Virus record (IMG/VR): IMGVR_UViG_2703718801_000022
Strand: one strand, 5' to 3'
DNA length: 42,217 nucleotides
From: a virus
Lineage: Duplodnaviria; Heunggongvirae; Uroviricota; Caudoviricetes
Part shown: positions 3,098 through 36,782 of the stretch, piece by piece
Layout: the number at the start of each line of letters is the position of its first letter
How positions within the stretch are numbered: the stretch's first letter is position 1
Notes under the pieces: generated by a model
What the model saw: only the letters and a program-made list of their open reading frames with translations
The model's database searches: none
What the model was told of the DNA's origin: nothing
Translations under genes and position numbers: made by a program

Positions 3098-3280
3098 CGT
3101 TTAATGTGCATAAAGAACCCCCTTAGTTGGTGAGTACATCATACACAATAAACCATATATGGATATGTATTACCTAAGAATACCCCTACCGAAATTACCC
3201 CCTGGGTGATACAATGCTGCCGTCCATAGGAAAATGGTTCTGCATGCAGCTAATACTGGAATATAATATGGAAACTAAAA
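3098..3280. promoter_or_regulatory. Divergent control region (lysis cassette / acyltransferase) with CCATATATGG palindrome and operator-like site
   Basis: CCATATATGG at 3153-3162; TTACC-CCCTG-GGTGA at 3195-3209; same two-motif arrangement as 6715-6767. Confidence 0.4.
3195..3209. promoter_or_regulatory. Operator-like palindrome TTACC-N5-GGTGA
   Basis: Matches the dispersed TTACC-N5-GGTAA family with one half-site variant. Confidence 0.4.
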
Positions 3281-4395
3281 ATGACTGACTCTGTTATCAT
3301 ATACTTGTGGGTTGGATGTTCAATTTTTATATGTGGTCTTTTATTTAGCTCTAATGTTTTTTCTTACATAGACGGGAAAGATCATGATTACTCAAGGGAG
3401 CGGAATCTTGATGGTCTAAGATATATTCTTGCATCCATGGTTGTGTTCCATCACTCAGACTATTTTATTAATTATTTTACAATAAATAAATGGACTACTC
3501 ATTCTGATTTTATTTATTCAATAGGGAAATTTGGCGTAGCGATTTTCTTTTCAATTACAGCTTTTCTTTTCTGGGGAAAGATTCGTAAATCAAAAAATAT
3601 TGACTGGATAAACTTATATAAAGATAGATTTTTTAGAATCGTACCGATGACATATCTTTCATCATTCATTGCTGTATCATATATTATTTTAATGTCAACA
3701 AACCACAACAATATTAGTTTGGATGATTTGTTGAAATGGTTTGACGCAAGTGTATTTGACATAAAACCTAATATAAATGGATTCAATAATTCTGTATTGG
3801 TGTTGTCTGGTGTAACATGGACAATAAAGTGGGAATGGGGATTCTACTTCTCTTTACCAATCATTTATTTTTTACGTTCCAAGCCACTTGAAGCTTCAAT
3901 TGGTATTATGTTTGTATGTATTTTCTACCATCATTTACAGATGCATCATATTGGTATTATTCTGCTTTCGCCTGTGGTATCCTATCTAAGGAGTTATCAT
4001 GCAGAATTTCATTATCAAAAAAAACATCTGACCTCATGCTGTTAGCATCTGTGACTATATTCGTACTGTTAAATCCATCACTTAACAGCACTAGACCGTG
4101 GATAATAGTCACAGTGTTTATGCTTTGCGTGGCTAAAGGCGCAAGCTTGTTTGGTATATTGAATATAAAGGGATTTACTCGTTTGGGGGAGTGCTCTTAC
4201 AGCATTTACCTTTTACAAGGGGTTGTTTTCTATCCTTCATTTGCCTTTATTAAAGATAAATATGATATTAACAACCTAAATATCTCACTCCCAATGATAA
4301 CAATTCTATTCGTAGCACTGTGTGTTTTATCATCACTTACATTTTCTTTTATTGAACGACCACTAATTAAGTACGGAAAAGGAATAAAATTATAA
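3281..4395 (+). pseudogene. Acyltransferase-3 family (O-antigen acetyltransferase-like) gene, frame-broken at an A8 tract
   Basis: AT-rich; multi-TM product with RNLDGLRYILASMVVFHHS and C-terminal LGECSYSIYLLQG motifs; reading frame switches at A8 run 4008-4015 (ORFs 3281-4045 and 3916-4395); one extra A would restore a single ORF. Confidence 0.65.
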
Positions 4396-4400
4396 ACTTT

Positions 4401-4440
4401 AGCGCATTAATCACGAAGGATGTAGTGATTAATGCGCTTT
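4401..4440. terminator. Bidirectional terminator hairpin between convergent acyltransferase and tail fibre genes
   Basis: Inverted repeat AGCGCATTAATCAC...GTGATTAATGCGCT with flanking T/A runs. Confidence 0.6.
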
Positions 4441-4443
4441 CAT

Positions 4444-6648
4444 TTAAAATGAATCACCCCTCCATGAGCAATCAACCATGCCACCATGTATAAATTTCCA
4501 CCTATATTGGTAAGATTGGTTTGGGGTAAGCTTTATACCAACACCAAGATTGGGAACTGTTTCAACAGAATTAATCCATGCTGCTGATTCAGATGTAAAT
4601 CCAAAAACAACTTGCGCCGTATTTGTAAAGAAATCGTCATTACAAGTTGTTATTGCTGATGATGTCTCAGAATTATCTGCTCCATTAAAATAATACAGCT
4701 CAAAGGCTATGTAGCCGTGGTTCTTCATCCTCGTAGCAAACACGCCTCCGGAGTTTCTTGCCGCGATACCACCCTGTTTGAATGTGGTGTTACGCTCACC
4801 TTGTGCGCTCCCAGCATTGATAGTCTGGAATGGTGTGACATCGGCAGAACTGTACTTGTCATTGTACAACTGCATAGCCCCAGCCATTCTATCCGGGTAA
4901 AATGCGTACACATCTATGTCATAAGGTTTTTGTCTAGGTACAGAATTGAATTCTTTCCCTAAAGCGTACAAATCAGTATCGGTGGTCAATGTGTTGTGTG
5001 TGTTTACGATGAGTTGTGTCTCCCAGGAGAACGCCGCATACTCACCATCACCCATGTTAAAAAACTTCTTGGCGAAAGCTATCTGTTTTGCTTTGTTTTT
5101 GAAGTTGTCAGAACCTCCATTTGCGTCAGTTGTAAACAAACCAACGCAAGGTACAATTCTTGATGTGGGACATTTATACTTCAGTTCCGCCCACCCAATA
5201 ACAGCCTGTCGTTTATTCCGGGCATCATCCCAGTCATCGTGATAATACGCGTCTGCAAATATAATATCGTATCCAATACCATCATAACCGCTCGGGTGTG
5301 TATTTGAATCAAACCCAAAAATACCATGTTCAGCTATGCATAATGATTTTTCTGTAAACTCTTTGAATGCAGCAATACGAACCTCTTGAGCAGCTCTGCT
5401 AACTGAATTATTTTGTGGCTCATCAAAAAGATAATACCCTATGACGCAATCTCTATCGTCCAGTTCTGAAGATGGCGTATCTGTCTGTCCGTATATTGGC
5501 CCGCCCAAAATCAAACGCAATCCTATTGCTTCCGCTGCGTTACATGCTTTTTCCATGTCTCCACCATCACGCCATGCCTGACCATAATGAATTAAAGTAT
5601 TAAATCCCGCGGTTTTTATTTGTAACATATCGCAGATATCAAATACCTCATGAACATATACAGCTTTCATTAGTGAATGGTTTACAGGTATTTCACTATC
5701 AAGTTCACATGGAACGTTTGGTAGTCTTGTGTATGTAATCGTTGCTTTTCCGGTAATCCTTGCACCTTGGGGCCAGTCAAATCTTGATAATGTGGTATCA
5801 CCGCTGATATGTGCAACCCCTGTTTTATCTATAGCTGCAAGAACATAAGGTTTAGCGTCCTCTCCACTACTATATATATATCCATATAAAGAAATATCAG
5901 AATTATCATAACCTGATTTATGATTGAGTTCATCCAACGTATCTTGAACAGTATCTCCTGATTTGGTACCAATCATCCCTGCGCCTGCTGGTTTAGCTAA
6001 TTCGATCAATACATCAGAAGCAGAGCCAGATGGAGGAAGTACAACAATGGGGTTACCATTGTTATCGAAAGCAAGCATCTTGTTTTCACGGGAGGCAGCG
6101 TCAGGAAGTATCGGAATCTGCTCCTGAACGCGCAATGTGCACCTGAGGCTAGTACTGAGCTGTGTATCAACATAATTTTTAGTGGCTGCATCTTGAGGTC
6201 TTGAAGGATCACGTAAATTGCGGATGTAATTGTTCAAGGCATCATAATAATTAGCAACAAATGATGGCTTACGCAGAGCCAACCTGAACAAACTGCGTAC
6301 CTGCTGGATCAGCATCGTTAGCTTATCAAACGCATCCTCATGCACCTCAGCAAAGAACTTCCCTTGATTGCGCAGATCAGTTTCCTGCGTAACCGGGAGT
6401 TCTCGTGATATAGAAATCTGATAACCGTTAGCCAACGCCTTCGACAGAATTACATTACCTCCACTGTACCCTCCCGCACCAGTGACTGCGTAATCAGTAT
6501 CAAGAGCCAGCACGGCGATATTTTCATCAAGGTCAACTACCTGTACTACCAGGTCAGATTTCTGGAAAATCCTAAAGGTATAAGGGAACGTAGTTGTAAC
6601 ACCGTTACCTGTGTATTCATTGTGGTCAACTTCGGTTGAGACCGTCAT
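4444..6648 (-). CDS. Tail fibre/tailspike protein with T7 gp17-like N-terminal adaptor domain and probable enzymatic C-terminal domain
   Basis: 734 aa; N-terminus (TTFPYTFRIFQKSDLVVQVVD) resembles podovirus tail-fibre N-domain; GGAGA RBS; own upstream control region. Confidence 0.75.
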   Translation of the reverse strand: MTVSTEVDHNEYTGNGVTTTFPYTFRIFQKSDLVVQVVDLDENIAVLALDTDYAVTGAGGYSGGNVILSKALANGYQISISRELPVTQETDLRNQGKFFAEVHEDAFDKLTMLIQQVRSLFRLALRKPSFVANYYDALNNYIRNLRDPSRPQDAATKNYVDTQLSTSLRCTLRVQEQIPILPDAASRENKMLAFDNNGNPIVVLPPSGSASDVLIELAKPAGAGMIGTKSGDTVQDTLDELNHKSGYDNSDISLYGYIYSSGEDAKPYVLAAIDKTGVAHISGDTTLSRFDWPQGARITGKATITYTRLPNVPCELDSEIPVNHSLMKAVYVHEVFDICDMLQIKTAGFNTLIHYGQAWRDGGDMEKACNAAEAIGLRLILGGPIYGQTDTPSSELDDRDCVIGYYLFDEPQNNSVSRAAQEVRIAAFKEFTEKSLCIAEHGIFGFDSNTHPSGYDGIGYDIIFADAYYHDDWDDARNKRQAVIGWAELKYKCPTSRIVPCVGLFTTDANGGSDNFKNKAKQIAFAKKFFNMGDGEYAAFSWETQLIVNTHNTLTTDTDLYALGKEFNSVPRQKPYDIDVYAFYPDRMAGAMQLYNDKYSSADVTPFQTINAGSAQGERNTTFKQGGIAARNSGGVFATRMKNHGYIAFELYYFNGADNSETSSAITTCNDDFFTNTAQVVFGFTSESAAWINSVETVPNLGVGIKLTPNQSYQYRWKFIHGGMVDCSWRGDSF

Positions 6649-6752
6649 GTTAAATCTCCAGATAGTCGCAGCACCCGTTGCGCCGCATATCCGGTCATTT
6701 TATTACCCTAAAAACCATATATGGATAAAAAGAATGTTAATGCGAATAAATA

Positions 6753-36008: not shown

Positions 36009-36063
36009 TATTGCTTTAAATTGAATCATCTACTGATTCATATATGAGGCGATTTTCCAGAAA

Positions 36064-36648
36064 ATGAAAAGTATCCAGGACGTCCGCAGGCAAAATCTCA
36101 ACGACTTGATCGACCGTGAATTCAATGGTGTTCAGACGCGGATGGCAGAAAAACTTGGAACTCAGGCAAATCTGGTAAACCGCTGGGCTCTTGGCAAGAA
36201 GGTTATCGGCGACCAGGTTGCGCGAAAAATTGAAGCTGCCGCCAATAAACCCCGTAACTGGCTTGATATCGATCGCTCGCTTTCTCAGGAAGGTTTTCAG
36301 CCTGTCGGCCCAAGCGACATTGGTCAGCTGGCGGCTCACAACCTGGAACGCTGGATGAGCGAAAGCCGCGACCTTTCAACACAGGGAAAACTTCACCGCG
36401 CATCCGGCGTCGCCCAGGTGACAATCAGCCGCCTGTTAAACAATGAGGTCAGCGTTTCCATTTCCACCCTGGAGAATGTTGCATCCGCATTCGGGCGTCA
36501 CGGATATGAACTACTGATTCACCCGCACGACCCTGCGACTATCAACTATGACCGCTCGCGCTACGCATTGTTACCCGAAACCGAGAAAGCAAAGATCGAA
36601 AGTTACATTGAATTTGTCATCAACCAGAACGAAAAAAACAAACAATAA
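36064..36648 (+). CDS. Prophage repressor with two tandem HTH domains and no peptidase S24 domain
   Basis: 194 aa; HTH-like segments MAEKLGTQANLVNRWALGKK and ASGVAQVTISRLLNNEVSVSISTLENVASAFG; no Ala-Gly/Ser..Lys autocleavage module. Confidence 0.7.
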   Translation: MKSIQDVRRQNLNDLIDREFNGVQTRMAEKLGTQANLVNRWALGKKVIGDQVARKIEAAANKPRNWLDIDRSLSQEGFQPVGPSDIGQLAAHNLERWMSESRDLSTQGKLHRASGVAQVTISRLLNNEVSVSISTLENVASAFGRHGYELLIHPHDPATINYDRSRYALLPETEKAKIESYIEFVINQNEKNKQ

Positions 36649-36670
36649 AATCATATTTTTCAGTAAGTAA

Positions 36671-36695
36671 GCCGCCTTCTGGCGGCTTTTTTATT
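36671..36695 (+). terminator. Rho-independent terminator of repressor gene
   Basis: GCCGCC-TTCT-GGCGGC followed by TTTTTTATT. Confidence 0.8.
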
Positions 36696-36705
36696 GCCTG
36701 TTCGA

Positions 36706-36782
36706 TTACCTAATGGGTAATTTTTTCAACTCATATCTATTGACATCAAACCAGATACGCATAATTATTACCTCAACGGTAA
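36706..36782. promoter_or_regulatory. Leftward-operon-like promoter with two flanking operators
   Basis: TTACC-TAATG-GGTAA (36706-36720), -35 TTGACA (36740-36745), AT-rich -10, TTACC-TCAAC-GGTAA (36768-36782). Confidence 0.5.

What the first reader, a model, noticed from the sequence alone, without database searches (positions are those of the whole stretch)
3195..36782. Dispersed 15-bp palindrome TTACC-N5-GGTAA at 16 positions, tripled between the repressor and cro-like genes
Sites read directly: 3195-3209, 6753-6767, 7133-7147, 8200-8214, 26729-26743, 29871-29885, 29889-29903, 33601-33615, 33664-33678, 35608-35622, 35946-35960, 35977-35991, 35994-36008, 36706-36720, 36768-36782, plus half-sites. 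Three sit between the divergent repressor and cro-like genes and two flank a TTGACA promoter after the repressor terminator, so the motif is most likely the immunity operator. The same motif also precedes the late-operon entry, the portal region, and the acetyltransferase, mini-antirepressor, sRNA and toxin-cassette promoters. That implies one repressor silences most accessory genes as well as the lytic switch, reminiscent of mycobacteriophage stoperators but symmetric. The repressor has two HTH domains in one chain and no dimerisation or peptidase domain, so it could read the palindrome as a single-chain pseudo-dimer.
Basis: partly seen in the sequence, partly recalled or inferred. Interest (0 to 1): 0.8.

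Follow-up and report, generated by a model that had tools for sequence, protein, structure and literature searches.

The report
Known repressor operators of a phiV10-like prophage
The repeated palindrome is real and marks the binding sites of the prophage's master repressor, but the same sites are already annotated in the related phage epsilon15 and the repressor family has a solved structure, so this is an ordinary member of a known system.

Summary
TTACC-N5-GGTAA occurs 9 times exactly (0.01 expected) and 15 times with at most one mismatch (0.65 expected). Fourteen of those 15 sites lie in the 8% of the window that is non-coding (p about 6e-15).

The window is a phiV10/epsilon15-like (Uetakevirus) prophage. 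The same motif sits at about ten orthologous positions in phiV10, Tyrion, epsilon15, SPC32H and a Klebsiella relative. The epsilon15 RefSeq record already labels seven of its sites "protein_bind: repressor".

The repressor (36064-36648) is a full-length homolog of SPC32H Rep (PDB 5D50). The 85-aa gene at 6844-7101 is the SPC32H Ant antirepressor, and a perfect LexA box precedes it.

The "immunity operator" reading is therefore supported. The "single-chain pseudo-dimer with no dimerisation domain" reading is not. In SPC32H Rep the second HTH-like domain is a dimerisation module and the C-terminus tetramerises. Only the N-terminal recognition helix (NLVNRW) is invariant across the genus.

Silencing of accessory genes is plausible for the isrK/C4/BRO-N and YafO cassettes, but most sites guard conserved lytic transcription units.

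I found no description of three things: operator pairs exactly 62 bp apart bracketing two promoters, operators placed just after terminators, and a second palindrome, CCATATATGG.

The parts
36064..36648 (+). Rep, the prophage master repressor (194 aa). It has an N-terminal HTH DNA-binding domain, a middle HTH-like dimerisation domain and a C-terminal tetramerisation/Ant-binding domain.
   Evidence: It aligns to SPC32H Rep (PDB 5D50_A) at E = 4e-42 over residues 1-190. Pfam HTH_3 matches residues 106-147 and there is a weak YdaS/Cro-like hit at 21-61; no peptidase domain is found. It is 100% identical to the phiV10 repressor and to ZX5 ORF21, whose overexpression abolished free phage.
35679..35909 (-). 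cro-like gene (76 aa), divergent from rep.
   Evidence: Homolog of PhiV10p41 and epsilon15 gp39. The segment GTTSHYIQTHLT is invariant across five phages. It has no Pfam or PDB match.
35946..36008 (.). OR-like operator trio: 35946-35960 (1 mismatch), 35977-35991 (2 mismatches), 35994-36008 (exact). Centre-to-centre spacing is 31 and 17 bp.
   Evidence: Conserved as a trio in all six phages. The 35946 site lies in the spacer of the leftward promoter TTGTTA-17-TATTAT (35963-35935).
36706..36782 (+). PL-like module after the rep terminator (36669-36688). It consists of a distal operator (36706-36720), the promoter TTGACA (36740-36745)-17-AATTAT (36763-36768), and a proximal operator (36768-36782) centred near +1. 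The operators are 62 bp apart.
   Evidence: The architecture and the 62-bp spacing are conserved in six phages.
33601..33677 (-). Second promoter module of the same design, after the replication-gene terminator (hairpin 33709-33698). It consists of a distal operator (33663-33677), the promoter TTGATT (33643-33638)-17-TTTAAT (33620-33615), and a proximal operator (33601-33615) ending 3 nt before the DUF1064 ATG. The operators are 62 bp apart.
   Evidence: The alignment of six phages shows the terminator, both operators and the promoter hexamers conserved.
35609..35623 (-). Single operator (1 mismatch) immediately after the cro terminator (35657-35638), ahead of the replication genes.
   Evidence: Orthologous sites are present in phiV10, Tyrion and BUCT711.
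29871..29903 (-). Operator pair (29889-29903 exact, 29871-29885 with 1 mismatch; 18 bp apart) between a terminator (29940-29923) and the probable true terS start (ATG at 29868).
   Evidence: The epsilon15 equivalent (12-27) is annotated as a repressor-binding site immediately before terS at 47.
26729..26743 (-). Operator upstream of the gp3-like/portal head operon.
   Evidence: Orthologous exact sites are present in all five relatives. The epsilon15 site at 2931-2947 is annotated as a repressor-binding site.
6753..6767 (.). Operator (1 mismatch) in the divergent intergenic region between the tailspike gene (4444-6648, minus strand) and ant.
   Evidence: Conserved in six phages. The epsilon15 site at 19895-19911 is annotated as a repressor-binding site.
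6807..6822 (+). LexA box CTGTATATTTGTACAG, overlapping the ant promoter.
   Evidence: Conserved across six phages.
6844..7101 (+). Ant, the small antirepressor (85 aa).
   Evidence: Matches the SPC32H anti-repressor (PDB 5D50_E) at E = 1.4e-46 over residues 2-84.
7133..7147 (+). Operator in front of the isrK-like sRNA (7184-7260), the C4-like antisense RNA (7285-7368) and the BRO-N gene (7417-8127). It abuts the -10 of TTGCAA-17-TATATT (7105-7133) and is centred about 44 bp upstream of the isrK 5' end.
   Evidence: Orthologous sites are present in phiV10, Tyrion, BUCT711 and TL-2011b.
8200..8214 (+). Operator upstream of the small ORF (8275-8454) and the YafO-family toxin cassette (8429-8974).
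   Evidence: An identical site lies before the same cassette in TL-2011b.
3195..3209 (.). Operator (1 mismatch) in the divergent intergenic region between the lysis operon (starting at 3088, minus strand) and the acyltransferase gene (3281-4395, plus strand; frameshifted in this window).
   Evidence: Orthologous sites are present in phiV10, Tyrion, epsilon15 and SPC32H.

Best explanation
The 15-bp palindromes are the operators of Rep, the master repressor of this phiV10-like (Uetakevirus) prophage. Rep belongs to the SPC32H Rep family.

How Rep binds (taken from the literature on the homolog):
- Rep has an N-terminal HTH DNA-binding domain, a middle HTH-like dimerisation domain and a C-terminal tetramerisation domain.
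- Two N-terminal domains read the two TTACC half-sites of one palindrome, so a tetramer can hold two palindromes.

What the operators do (inferred from position):
- They overlap or abut the promoters of essentially every lytic transcription unit: cro, the early-left recombination genes, the replication genes, the DUF1064 (nin-like) block, terS, the head operon, the tailspike gene and the lysis operon.
- They also precede two accessory cassettes.
- The prophage is therefore silenced unit by unit rather than through a cascade.

How induction works (shown in SPC32H, inferred here from homology): induction does not cleave Rep. SOS inactivation of LexA releases the small antirepressor Ant (6844-7101), which binds the Rep C-terminal domains and takes the tetramer off the DNA.
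For: Enrichment and location:
- The motif is about 900-fold enriched and almost exclusively intergenic.

Conservation:
- The same motif occurs at the same roughly ten positions in phiV10, Tyrion, epsilon15, SPC32H and BUCT711, although their Reps are only 42-78% identical to the window Rep.
- Seven epsilon15 sites are annotated 'protein_bind: repressor' in RefSeq.

The proteins:
- Rep is a full-length homolog of 5D50_A and Ant is a homolog of 5D50_E.
- A perfect, conserved LexA box lies at the ant promoter.
- Citing papers state that SPC32H Rep binds palindromic DNA as a tetramer, with the DNA-binding domains paired across dimers, and has DBD-MDD-tetramerisation architecture.
- The recognition helix NLVNRW is invariant, matching the invariant half-site.

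Position relative to promoters:
- One operator lies in the spacer of the cro promoter.
- Operators sit at +1 of the PL-like promoter and of the DUF1064 promoter.

Function:
- Overexpressing the identical protein in phage ZX5 cut holin and endolysin mRNA by more than 99.9% and abolished free phage.
Against: - No binding experiment for this Rep on these sites could be consulted. The primary SPC32H and epsilon15 papers are not in the held library, so which operators were shown experimentally is unknown to me.
- The cro-like protein also has an invariant HTH and could bind the same sites.
- Because the motif never varies in the genus, covariation cannot assign it to Rep rather than Cro.
- Most promoter assignments are consensus matches only.
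- The ZX5 effect on lysis genes could be indirect.
Confidence: 0.85

Rival explanations
1. One reading: one Rep chain reads the whole palindrome as a pseudo-dimer, using its two HTH domains, with no oligomerisation.
For: Two HTH-like regions are present in one chain: Pfam HTH_3 at residues 106-147 and a weak Cro/YdaS-like hit at 21-61. No peptidase domain is found.
Against: - The homologous SPC32H Rep is described as DBD plus dimerisation domain plus tetramerisation domain, binding DNA as a tetramer. The dimeric form binds DNA only weakly.
- The homology covers residues 1-190, including the C-terminal domain.
- The two halves share no detectable similarity and carry different helix-3 sequences, NLVNRW versus VTISRLLNN. 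The half-sites, however, are identical.
- The second helix varies across the genus while the half-site does not.
Confidence: 0.04
2. The motif is mainly the target of another regulator rather than Rep. Candidates are the cro-like protein and the gp49-like regulator (30176-30514).
For: The cro-like HTH is invariant across the genus. In lambda-type switches Cro shares the CI operators (general knowledge). No direct Rep binding data were accessible.
Against: The epsilon15 annotation names the repressor. Citing literature says SPC32H Rep binds palindromic sites. Sites in front of int and rep-proximal promoters fit a lysogenic repressor. Shared use by Rep and Cro is likely and is not exclusive of the best explanation.
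Confidence: 0.08
3. A subset of sites act as stoperator-like roadblocks to elongating RNA polymerase rather than as promoter operators. The candidates lie just after terminators and inside 5' leaders: 35609, 29871/29889 and 33601.
For: A terminator-then-operator layout occurs at four places. The terS pair sits between a terminator and the start codon, with no convincing -35.
Against: - The sites are symmetric, so they cannot be orientation-specific as L5 stoperators are (L5 properties from memory).
- PL and the DUF1064 module have good conserved promoters with the operator at +1.
- An extended -10 (TGgTACTAT) abuts the 29889 site.
Confidence: 0.15
4. The sites are not regulatory. They could be a restriction-modification target, a packaging site or a recombination site.
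For: The bipartite palindrome superficially resembles an interrupted restriction site. One pair lies next to terS.
Against: Phages usually avoid restriction targets rather than accumulate them (general knowledge). The sites are confined to intergenic DNA, at promoters and between rep and cro. They are dispersed at ten conserved positions rather than at one pac or att locus.
Confidence: 0.02

Closest known systems
Annotated repressor-binding sites of Salmonella phage epsilon15 (RefSeq NC_004775.2; Kropinski et al. 2007)
   Same: Same genus and the same motif, TTACC-N5-GGTAA. The positions are orthologous: before terS, before gp3/portal, in the ant/tailspike intergenic region, on the PL side of the repressor, and after the replication genes.
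   Different: The window Rep is only 43% identical to epsilon15 gp38. The epsilon15 record does not annotate the trio between rep and the cro-like gene, or the site in the lysis intergenic region. The window has extra sites at accessory cassettes (7133, 8200) that epsilon15 lacks.
SPC32H Rep-Ant antirepression system (PDB 5D50/5D4Z; Kim & Ryu 2013, Kim et al. 2016)
   Same: Rep and Ant are both homologous over their full length. A LexA box lies at the ant promoter. Rep has no autocleavage domain. SPC32H carries the same motif at the same places.
   Different: Rep is 43% identical overall, 54% in the N-terminal domain and 34% in the middle domain. Oligomeric state and Ant sensitivity were not tested for this protein.
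Phage P1 C1 repressor with many dispersed operators, including Op51 before the c4-icd-ant immI operon (from memory)
   Same: One repressor acts directly at many scattered operators. Here an operator lies directly in front of a C4-family antisense RNA followed by an antirepressor-type gene.
   Different: P1 operators are asymmetric 17-mers read by a monomer, and C1 is unrelated to Rep (both from memory). Here the sites are symmetric and the repressor is expected to be a tetramer.
Mycobacteriophage L5 gp71 stoperators (from memory)
   Same: Many copies of the repressor site lie outside the immunity region, some within transcribed leaders just downstream of terminators.
   Different: Stoperators are asymmetric 13-mers whose orientation follows the direction of transcription, and they block elongation. 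Here the sites are palindromic and at least three sit at +1 or in the spacer of recognisable promoters.
Lambda CI at the tripartite OR and at OL
   Same: There is a trio of operators between divergent repressor and cro genes, further operators at an early-left promoter downstream of the repressor gene, and paired sites that suggest cooperative binding.
   Different: Lambda controls only PL and PR directly and relies on antitermination cascades. CI is cleaved via RecA, whereas Rep is expected to be removed by Ant.

Membership tests
SPC32H-type Rep/Ant immunity system | Repressor homologous to SPC32H Rep over all three domains (DBD, MDD, C-terminal tetramerisation/Ant-binding domain). | tested here: met
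   phmmer against PDB: 5D50_A at E = 4e-42, query residues 1-190 aligned to chain residues 2-197; 5D4Z (residues 92-198) at E = 4e-20.
SPC32H-type Rep/Ant immunity system | Small antirepressor homologous to SPC32H Ant. | tested here: met
   Window 6844-7101 against 5D50_E: E = 1.4e-46 over residues 2-84.
SPC32H-type Rep/Ant immunity system | The ant promoter overlaps a LexA box, giving an SOS link without repressor cleavage. | tested here: met
   CTGTATATTTGTACAG at 6807-6822, 22 bp upstream of the ant ATG and conserved in six phages. No peptidase S24 domain is found in Rep.
SPC32H-type Rep/Ant immunity system | Rep binds palindromic operators as a tetramer and is released by Ant. | not testable with these tools
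   Known only from citing papers on the homolog. Needs EMSA, SEC-MALS and Ant titration.
Uetakevirus Rep operator set (as annotated in epsilon15) | The TTACC-N5-GGTAA palindrome at the orthologous intergenic positions. | tested here: met
   Nine of the ten position classes are present in the window; the tenth, upstream of int, lies just beyond the right end of the window.
Stoperators (mycobacteriophage cluster A) | An asymmetric site whose orientation follows the direction of transcription. | tested here: not met
   The sites are perfect or near-perfect palindromes.
Stoperators (mycobacteriophage cluster A) | Sites within transcribed regions that block elongation. | tested here: inconclusive
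   Four terminator-then-operator junctions exist, but promoters are predicted at several of them. There are no transcription data.
Single-chain tandem-HTH pseudo-dimer | Two equivalent DNA-reading HTH domains in one chain and no oligomerisation module. | tested here: not met
   The two halves show no similarity. The second helix-3 varies while the half-site is invariant. The homolog's second domain is a dimerisation domain and its C-terminus tetramerises.
P1 immI-type c4-ant module | A C4-family antisense RNA upstream of an antirepressor gene, with an operator of the master repressor in front. | tested here: met
   Rfam C4 (RF01695, 66 bits) at 7285-7368 and isrK (RF01394, 67 bits) at 7184-7260, upstream of the BRO-N gene at 7417-8127. 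The operator is at 7133-7147. Whether the BRO-N protein acts on Rep is not tested.

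The most novel reading that the evidence does not exclude
Rep works as a promoter clamp and as a dual regulator.

Clamp: one tetramer holds two palindromes set exactly 62 bp apart (about six helical turns) on either side of a promoter. 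This spacing is kept in 11 of 12 pairs across six phages whose intervening sequence has diverged to roughly 60% identity.

Dual regulation: the same protein, bound at about -44, may activate its own promoter (site 35977 relative to a predicted TTTACC-17-TTAAAT promoter) and the isrK/C4 promoter (site 7133). That would keep a second, BRO-N-type antirepressor silent in the lysogen.

Together with the operators placed directly behind four terminators, this would amount to a unit-by-unit gating logic not described for podoviruses.
Probability: 0.2. Interest if true: 0.45.

Novelty: already known. Interest (0 to 1): 0.22.

Why it matters
It gives a correct regulatory map for a common family of E. 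coli, Salmonella, Enterobacter and Klebsiella prophages. These include the O157 typing phages and phiV10, which is used in reporter-phage work. The map consists of about ten Rep-gated transcription units, SOS input through LexA and Ant, and at least two extra antirepressor-type modules.

It also corrects a tempting misreading. The domain that Pfam calls HTH_3 in this repressor is, in the solved homolog, a dimerisation module rather than a second DNA reader.

Two practical points follow:
- The invariant operator and recognition helix suggest that genus members could cross-repress one another despite only 42% Rep identity.
- The sites in front of a toxin cassette and an sRNA/antirepressor cassette suggest that newly acquired accessory genes get wired into the Rep regulon.

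Neither point changes current understanding of phage repression.

Tried and rejected
1. Reading the primary papers. Kropinski 2007, Kim & Ryu 2013 and Kim et al. 2016 were requested by PMC id, PubMed id and DOI, and none is held. I relied on the RefSeq annotation and on citing papers.

2. A covariation test linking repressor specificity to the motif. The motif and both candidate recognition helices (Rep and cro-like) are invariant across the genus, so the test cannot discriminate between them.

3. The idea that every operator abuts a -10 hexamer. Many do, but the operator flanks are A/T-rich, which inflates -10-like scores. I trust only PL, the DUF1064 promoter and the promoter before isrK.

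4. CCATATATGG as a late-promoter activator site. In Tyrion it also lies inside early promoter spacers, so that reading was dropped and the motif is left unexplained.

5. A LexA box before the BRO-N gene or the YafO cassette. The CTG-N9-CAG at about 8150 has the wrong spacing.

6. Restriction-target or pac-site readings. These were rejected because the sites are confined to intergenic DNA and dispersed.

7. A PDB or Pfam match for the cro-like protein. None was found.

8. Structure prediction of Rep. I judged it redundant given the full-length match to 5D50 and did not run it.

Full report
**1. Observation**

The pattern TTACCNNNNNGGTAA occurs 9 times exactly in the 42,217-bp window, against 0.01 expected from dinucleotide-preserving shuffles. 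With one mismatch allowed it occurs 15 times against 0.65 expected.

- Nine sites are exact, five have one mismatch, and one (35977) has two.
- Two coordinates are off by one: 33663, not 33664, and 35609, not 35608.
- A further one-mismatch site at 2950 lies inside a gene, is not conserved in relatives, and fits the chance expectation.

Across the 15 credible sites the core ACC/GGT never varies. The consensus is TTACCY-N3-RGGTAA with A/T-rich flanks.

Fourteen of the 15 sites with at most one mismatch lie in the 8% of the window that is non-coding (p = 6e-15). Shuffling only the intergenic DNA gives 0.16 sites. This count uses my gene list, in which terS starts at the in-frame ATG at 29868, as it does in epsilon15. 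With the annotated upstream TTG start the count would be 12 of 15.

**2. What the window is**

The immunity region is about 98% identical to Escherichia phage phiV10 and its relatives in the genus Uetakevirus. The left 12 kb of the window matches a prophage of E. coli OkiPb01680 at 100% identity apart from a 4-bp indel. That record supplied the PGAP gene map.

The window runs from the host genes yfgH and yfgI, through the lysis genes, to the integrase. It therefore holds nearly the whole prophage.

**3. The motif is already annotated in this genus**

The RefSeq record of epsilon15 carries seven features labelled "protein_bind, repressor, lysogeny". Each of them is a TTACC-N5-GGTAA site.

Epsilon15 has 15 sites with at most one mismatch against 0.5 expected. 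Tyrion has 15 and the Klebsiella phage BUCT711 has 13. phiV10 has 14 and SPC32H has 18.

The sites fall into ten orthologous position classes:
- a pair 18 bp apart directly before terS;
- one before the gp3/portal operon;
- one in the divergent ant/tailspike intergenic region;
- one after ant, in phages that carry an accessory gene there;
- one in the divergent intergenic region between the O-antigen-modification genes and the lysis operon;
- one about 50 bp before int, which lies just beyond the right end of the window;
- a pair at the early-left promoter;
- a trio between rep and the cro-like gene;
- one after the cro terminator;
- a pair after the replication genes.

phiV10's own record annotates none of these.

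**4. The proteins**

Rep:
- The repressor (36064-36648) aligns to SPC32H Rep (PDB 5D50_A) at E = 4e-42 over residues 1-190.
- Papers citing the structure describe an N-terminal DNA-binding domain, a middle dimerisation domain, and a C-terminal tetramerisation domain that also binds Ant.
- They also say Rep binds palindromic DNA as a tetramer, with the DNA-binding domains paired across dimers, while the dimeric form binds DNA weakly.
- Pfam places HTH_3 on residues 106-147, which is the dimerisation domain. The N-terminal domain gives only a weak Cro/YdaS-like hit. No peptidase domain is found.

Ant and LexA:
- The 85-aa gene at 6844-7101 is the SPC32H Ant antirepressor (5D50_E, E = 1.4e-46).
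- A perfect LexA box, CTGTATATTTGTACAG, lies at 6807-6822 and is conserved in six phages.
- From memory of Kim & Ryu 2013, LexA control of ant is what links SOS to induction in SPC32H.

Functional evidence: phage ZX5 encodes a repressor 100% identical to the window's. Overexpressing it abolished free phage and cut holin and endolysin mRNA by 99.97-99.99%.

**5. The pseudo-dimer idea**

It is not supported:
- There is published evidence of dimerisation and tetramerisation modules in the homolog.
- The two HTH-like halves of the window protein show no detectable similarity to each other.
- Across Reps that are 43-78% identical, the N-terminal recognition helix NLVNRW is invariant. The N-terminal domain is the best-conserved part, at 54% identity between the window and SPC32H, against 34% for the middle domain.
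- The equivalent helix of the second domain varies.
- A perfectly symmetric and invariant half-site is what two copies of the N-terminal domain would read.

**6. Anatomy of the sites**

| Site | Operator arrangement | Promoter and other context |
|---|---|---|
| Between cro and rep | 35946 lies in the promoter spacer; 35977 and 35994 lie 31 and 48 bp further right | Leftward cro promoter TTGTTA-17-TATTAT; the trio is conserved in six phages |
| After the rep terminator | Distal 36706; proximal 36768, sharing its first T with the -10 and so centred near +1 | TTGACA-17-AATTAT |
| After the replication-gene terminator | Distal 33663; proximal 33601, 3 nt before the DUF1064 ATG | TTGATT-17-TTTAAT; same design as the module above |

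- In both promoter modules the operators are exactly 62 bp apart. This holds in 11 of 12 pairs across six phages (the remaining pair is 63 bp), with no indels in intervening sequence that is only about 60-75% conserved.
- That fits a tetramer with two pairs of DNA-binding domains holding both sites. This step is inference.
- Operators also follow terminators at 35609 (after cro) and at 29889/29871 (after the gp49-like regulator, directly before terS).

**7. Accessory genes**

- Site 7133 lies before an isrK-family sRNA (7184-7260), a C4-family antisense RNA (7285-7368) and a BRO-N gene. It abuts the -10 of TTGCAA-17-TATATT and is centred about 44 bp upstream of the isrK 5' end. From memory, this resembles P1, where C1 binds Op51 before c4-icd-ant.
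- Site 8200 lies before a small ORF and a YafO-family toxin. It is identical in TL-2011b, which carries the same cassette.
- Sites 3195 and 6753 lie in conserved divergent intergenic regions shared with the lysis and tailspike operons. Which promoter they control cannot be read from sequence.
- From memory of Perry et al. 2009, the phiV10 O-acetyltransferase is expressed in lysogens, which argues against simple silencing of that gene.
- The statement that Rep silences most accessory genes is therefore only partly supported.

**8. Comparison and verdict**

Functionally this is direct, multi-site repression. It is like P1 C1, and superficially like L5 stoperators, but with symmetric sites. Membership is clear: it belongs to the Uetakevirus Rep/Ant system typified by SPC32H and epsilon15, and every testable defining feature is met.

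The motif-as-operator reading is already in a public annotation of the type phage, so I rate the finding as already known, with low interest. What I could not find described in the sources available to me:
- the conserved 62-bp promoter-bracketing pairs;
- the terminator-then-operator junctions;
- the operator in front of isrK/C4/BRO-N;
- a second palindrome (CCATATATGG) next to several operators.

**9. Limits**

- I could not see any binding data for this Rep.
- The primary papers were unavailable.
- Rep and the cro-like protein cannot be separated by covariation.
- Most promoters are consensus matches only.

Noticed in passing
window 7184-7260 and 7285-7368 (+): Rfam matches above the gathering score to the isrK Hfq-binding sRNA (67 bits) and the C4 antisense RNA (66 bits). 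They lie in tandem between the Ant gene and a BRO-N gene, an arrangement like P1 immI c4-ant inside a podovirus prophage.
   Followed up: partly
window 3151-3164 and 6713-6726 (+); weaker copies at 26677-26690 and 36749-36762: A second conserved palindrome, AACCATATATGGAT (core CCATATATGG), lies 27-31 bp from the Rep operators in the lysis and tailspike intergenic regions. It is conserved at the tailspike/ant site in six phages and also occurs inside promoter spacers in Tyrion. The binding factor is unknown.
   Followed up: partly
window 3916 (acyltransferase gene 3281-4395): There is a 4-bp deletion in a TTTG repeat relative to E. coli OkiPb01680. It frameshifts the O-antigen acyltransferase, so the serotype-conversion gene is probably a pseudogene in this strain.
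   Followed up: partly
window 9301-11031: A P22 immI-like module: an antirepressor with a P22_AR_N domain (9301-10203, minus strand) and an Arc-family protein (10600-11031, plus strand). It carries no Rep operator. It is a third antirepressor-type module in one prophage.
   Followed up: no
window 27258-27273: A second LexA-box-like sequence, CTGTAAACCAGTACAG, lies between the tRNA-Arg gene (27066-27142) and a Gp49-family gene (27341-27712).
   Followed up: no
window 29868 vs 29949 (-): The annotated TTG start of terS would place a terminator hairpin and both operators inside the ORF. The in-frame ATG at 29868, directly after the second operator as in epsilon15, is the more likely start.
   Followed up: partly
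L001 26870, L003 26882, L004 26960, L005 28568, L006 12620 (just beyond the right end of the window): A conserved one-mismatch operator lies about 45-57 bp upstream of int in all five relatives. The mismatch is GGTAT in four of them and falls in the left half-site (ATACC) in BUCT711. This suggests Rep also acts on int.
   Followed up: no
L002 17259-19844: The otherwise near-identical prophage in strain OkiPb01680 carries an ISEc8 (IS66-family) insertion that splits the SLT-domain virion gene. The window copy is intact.
   Followed up: no
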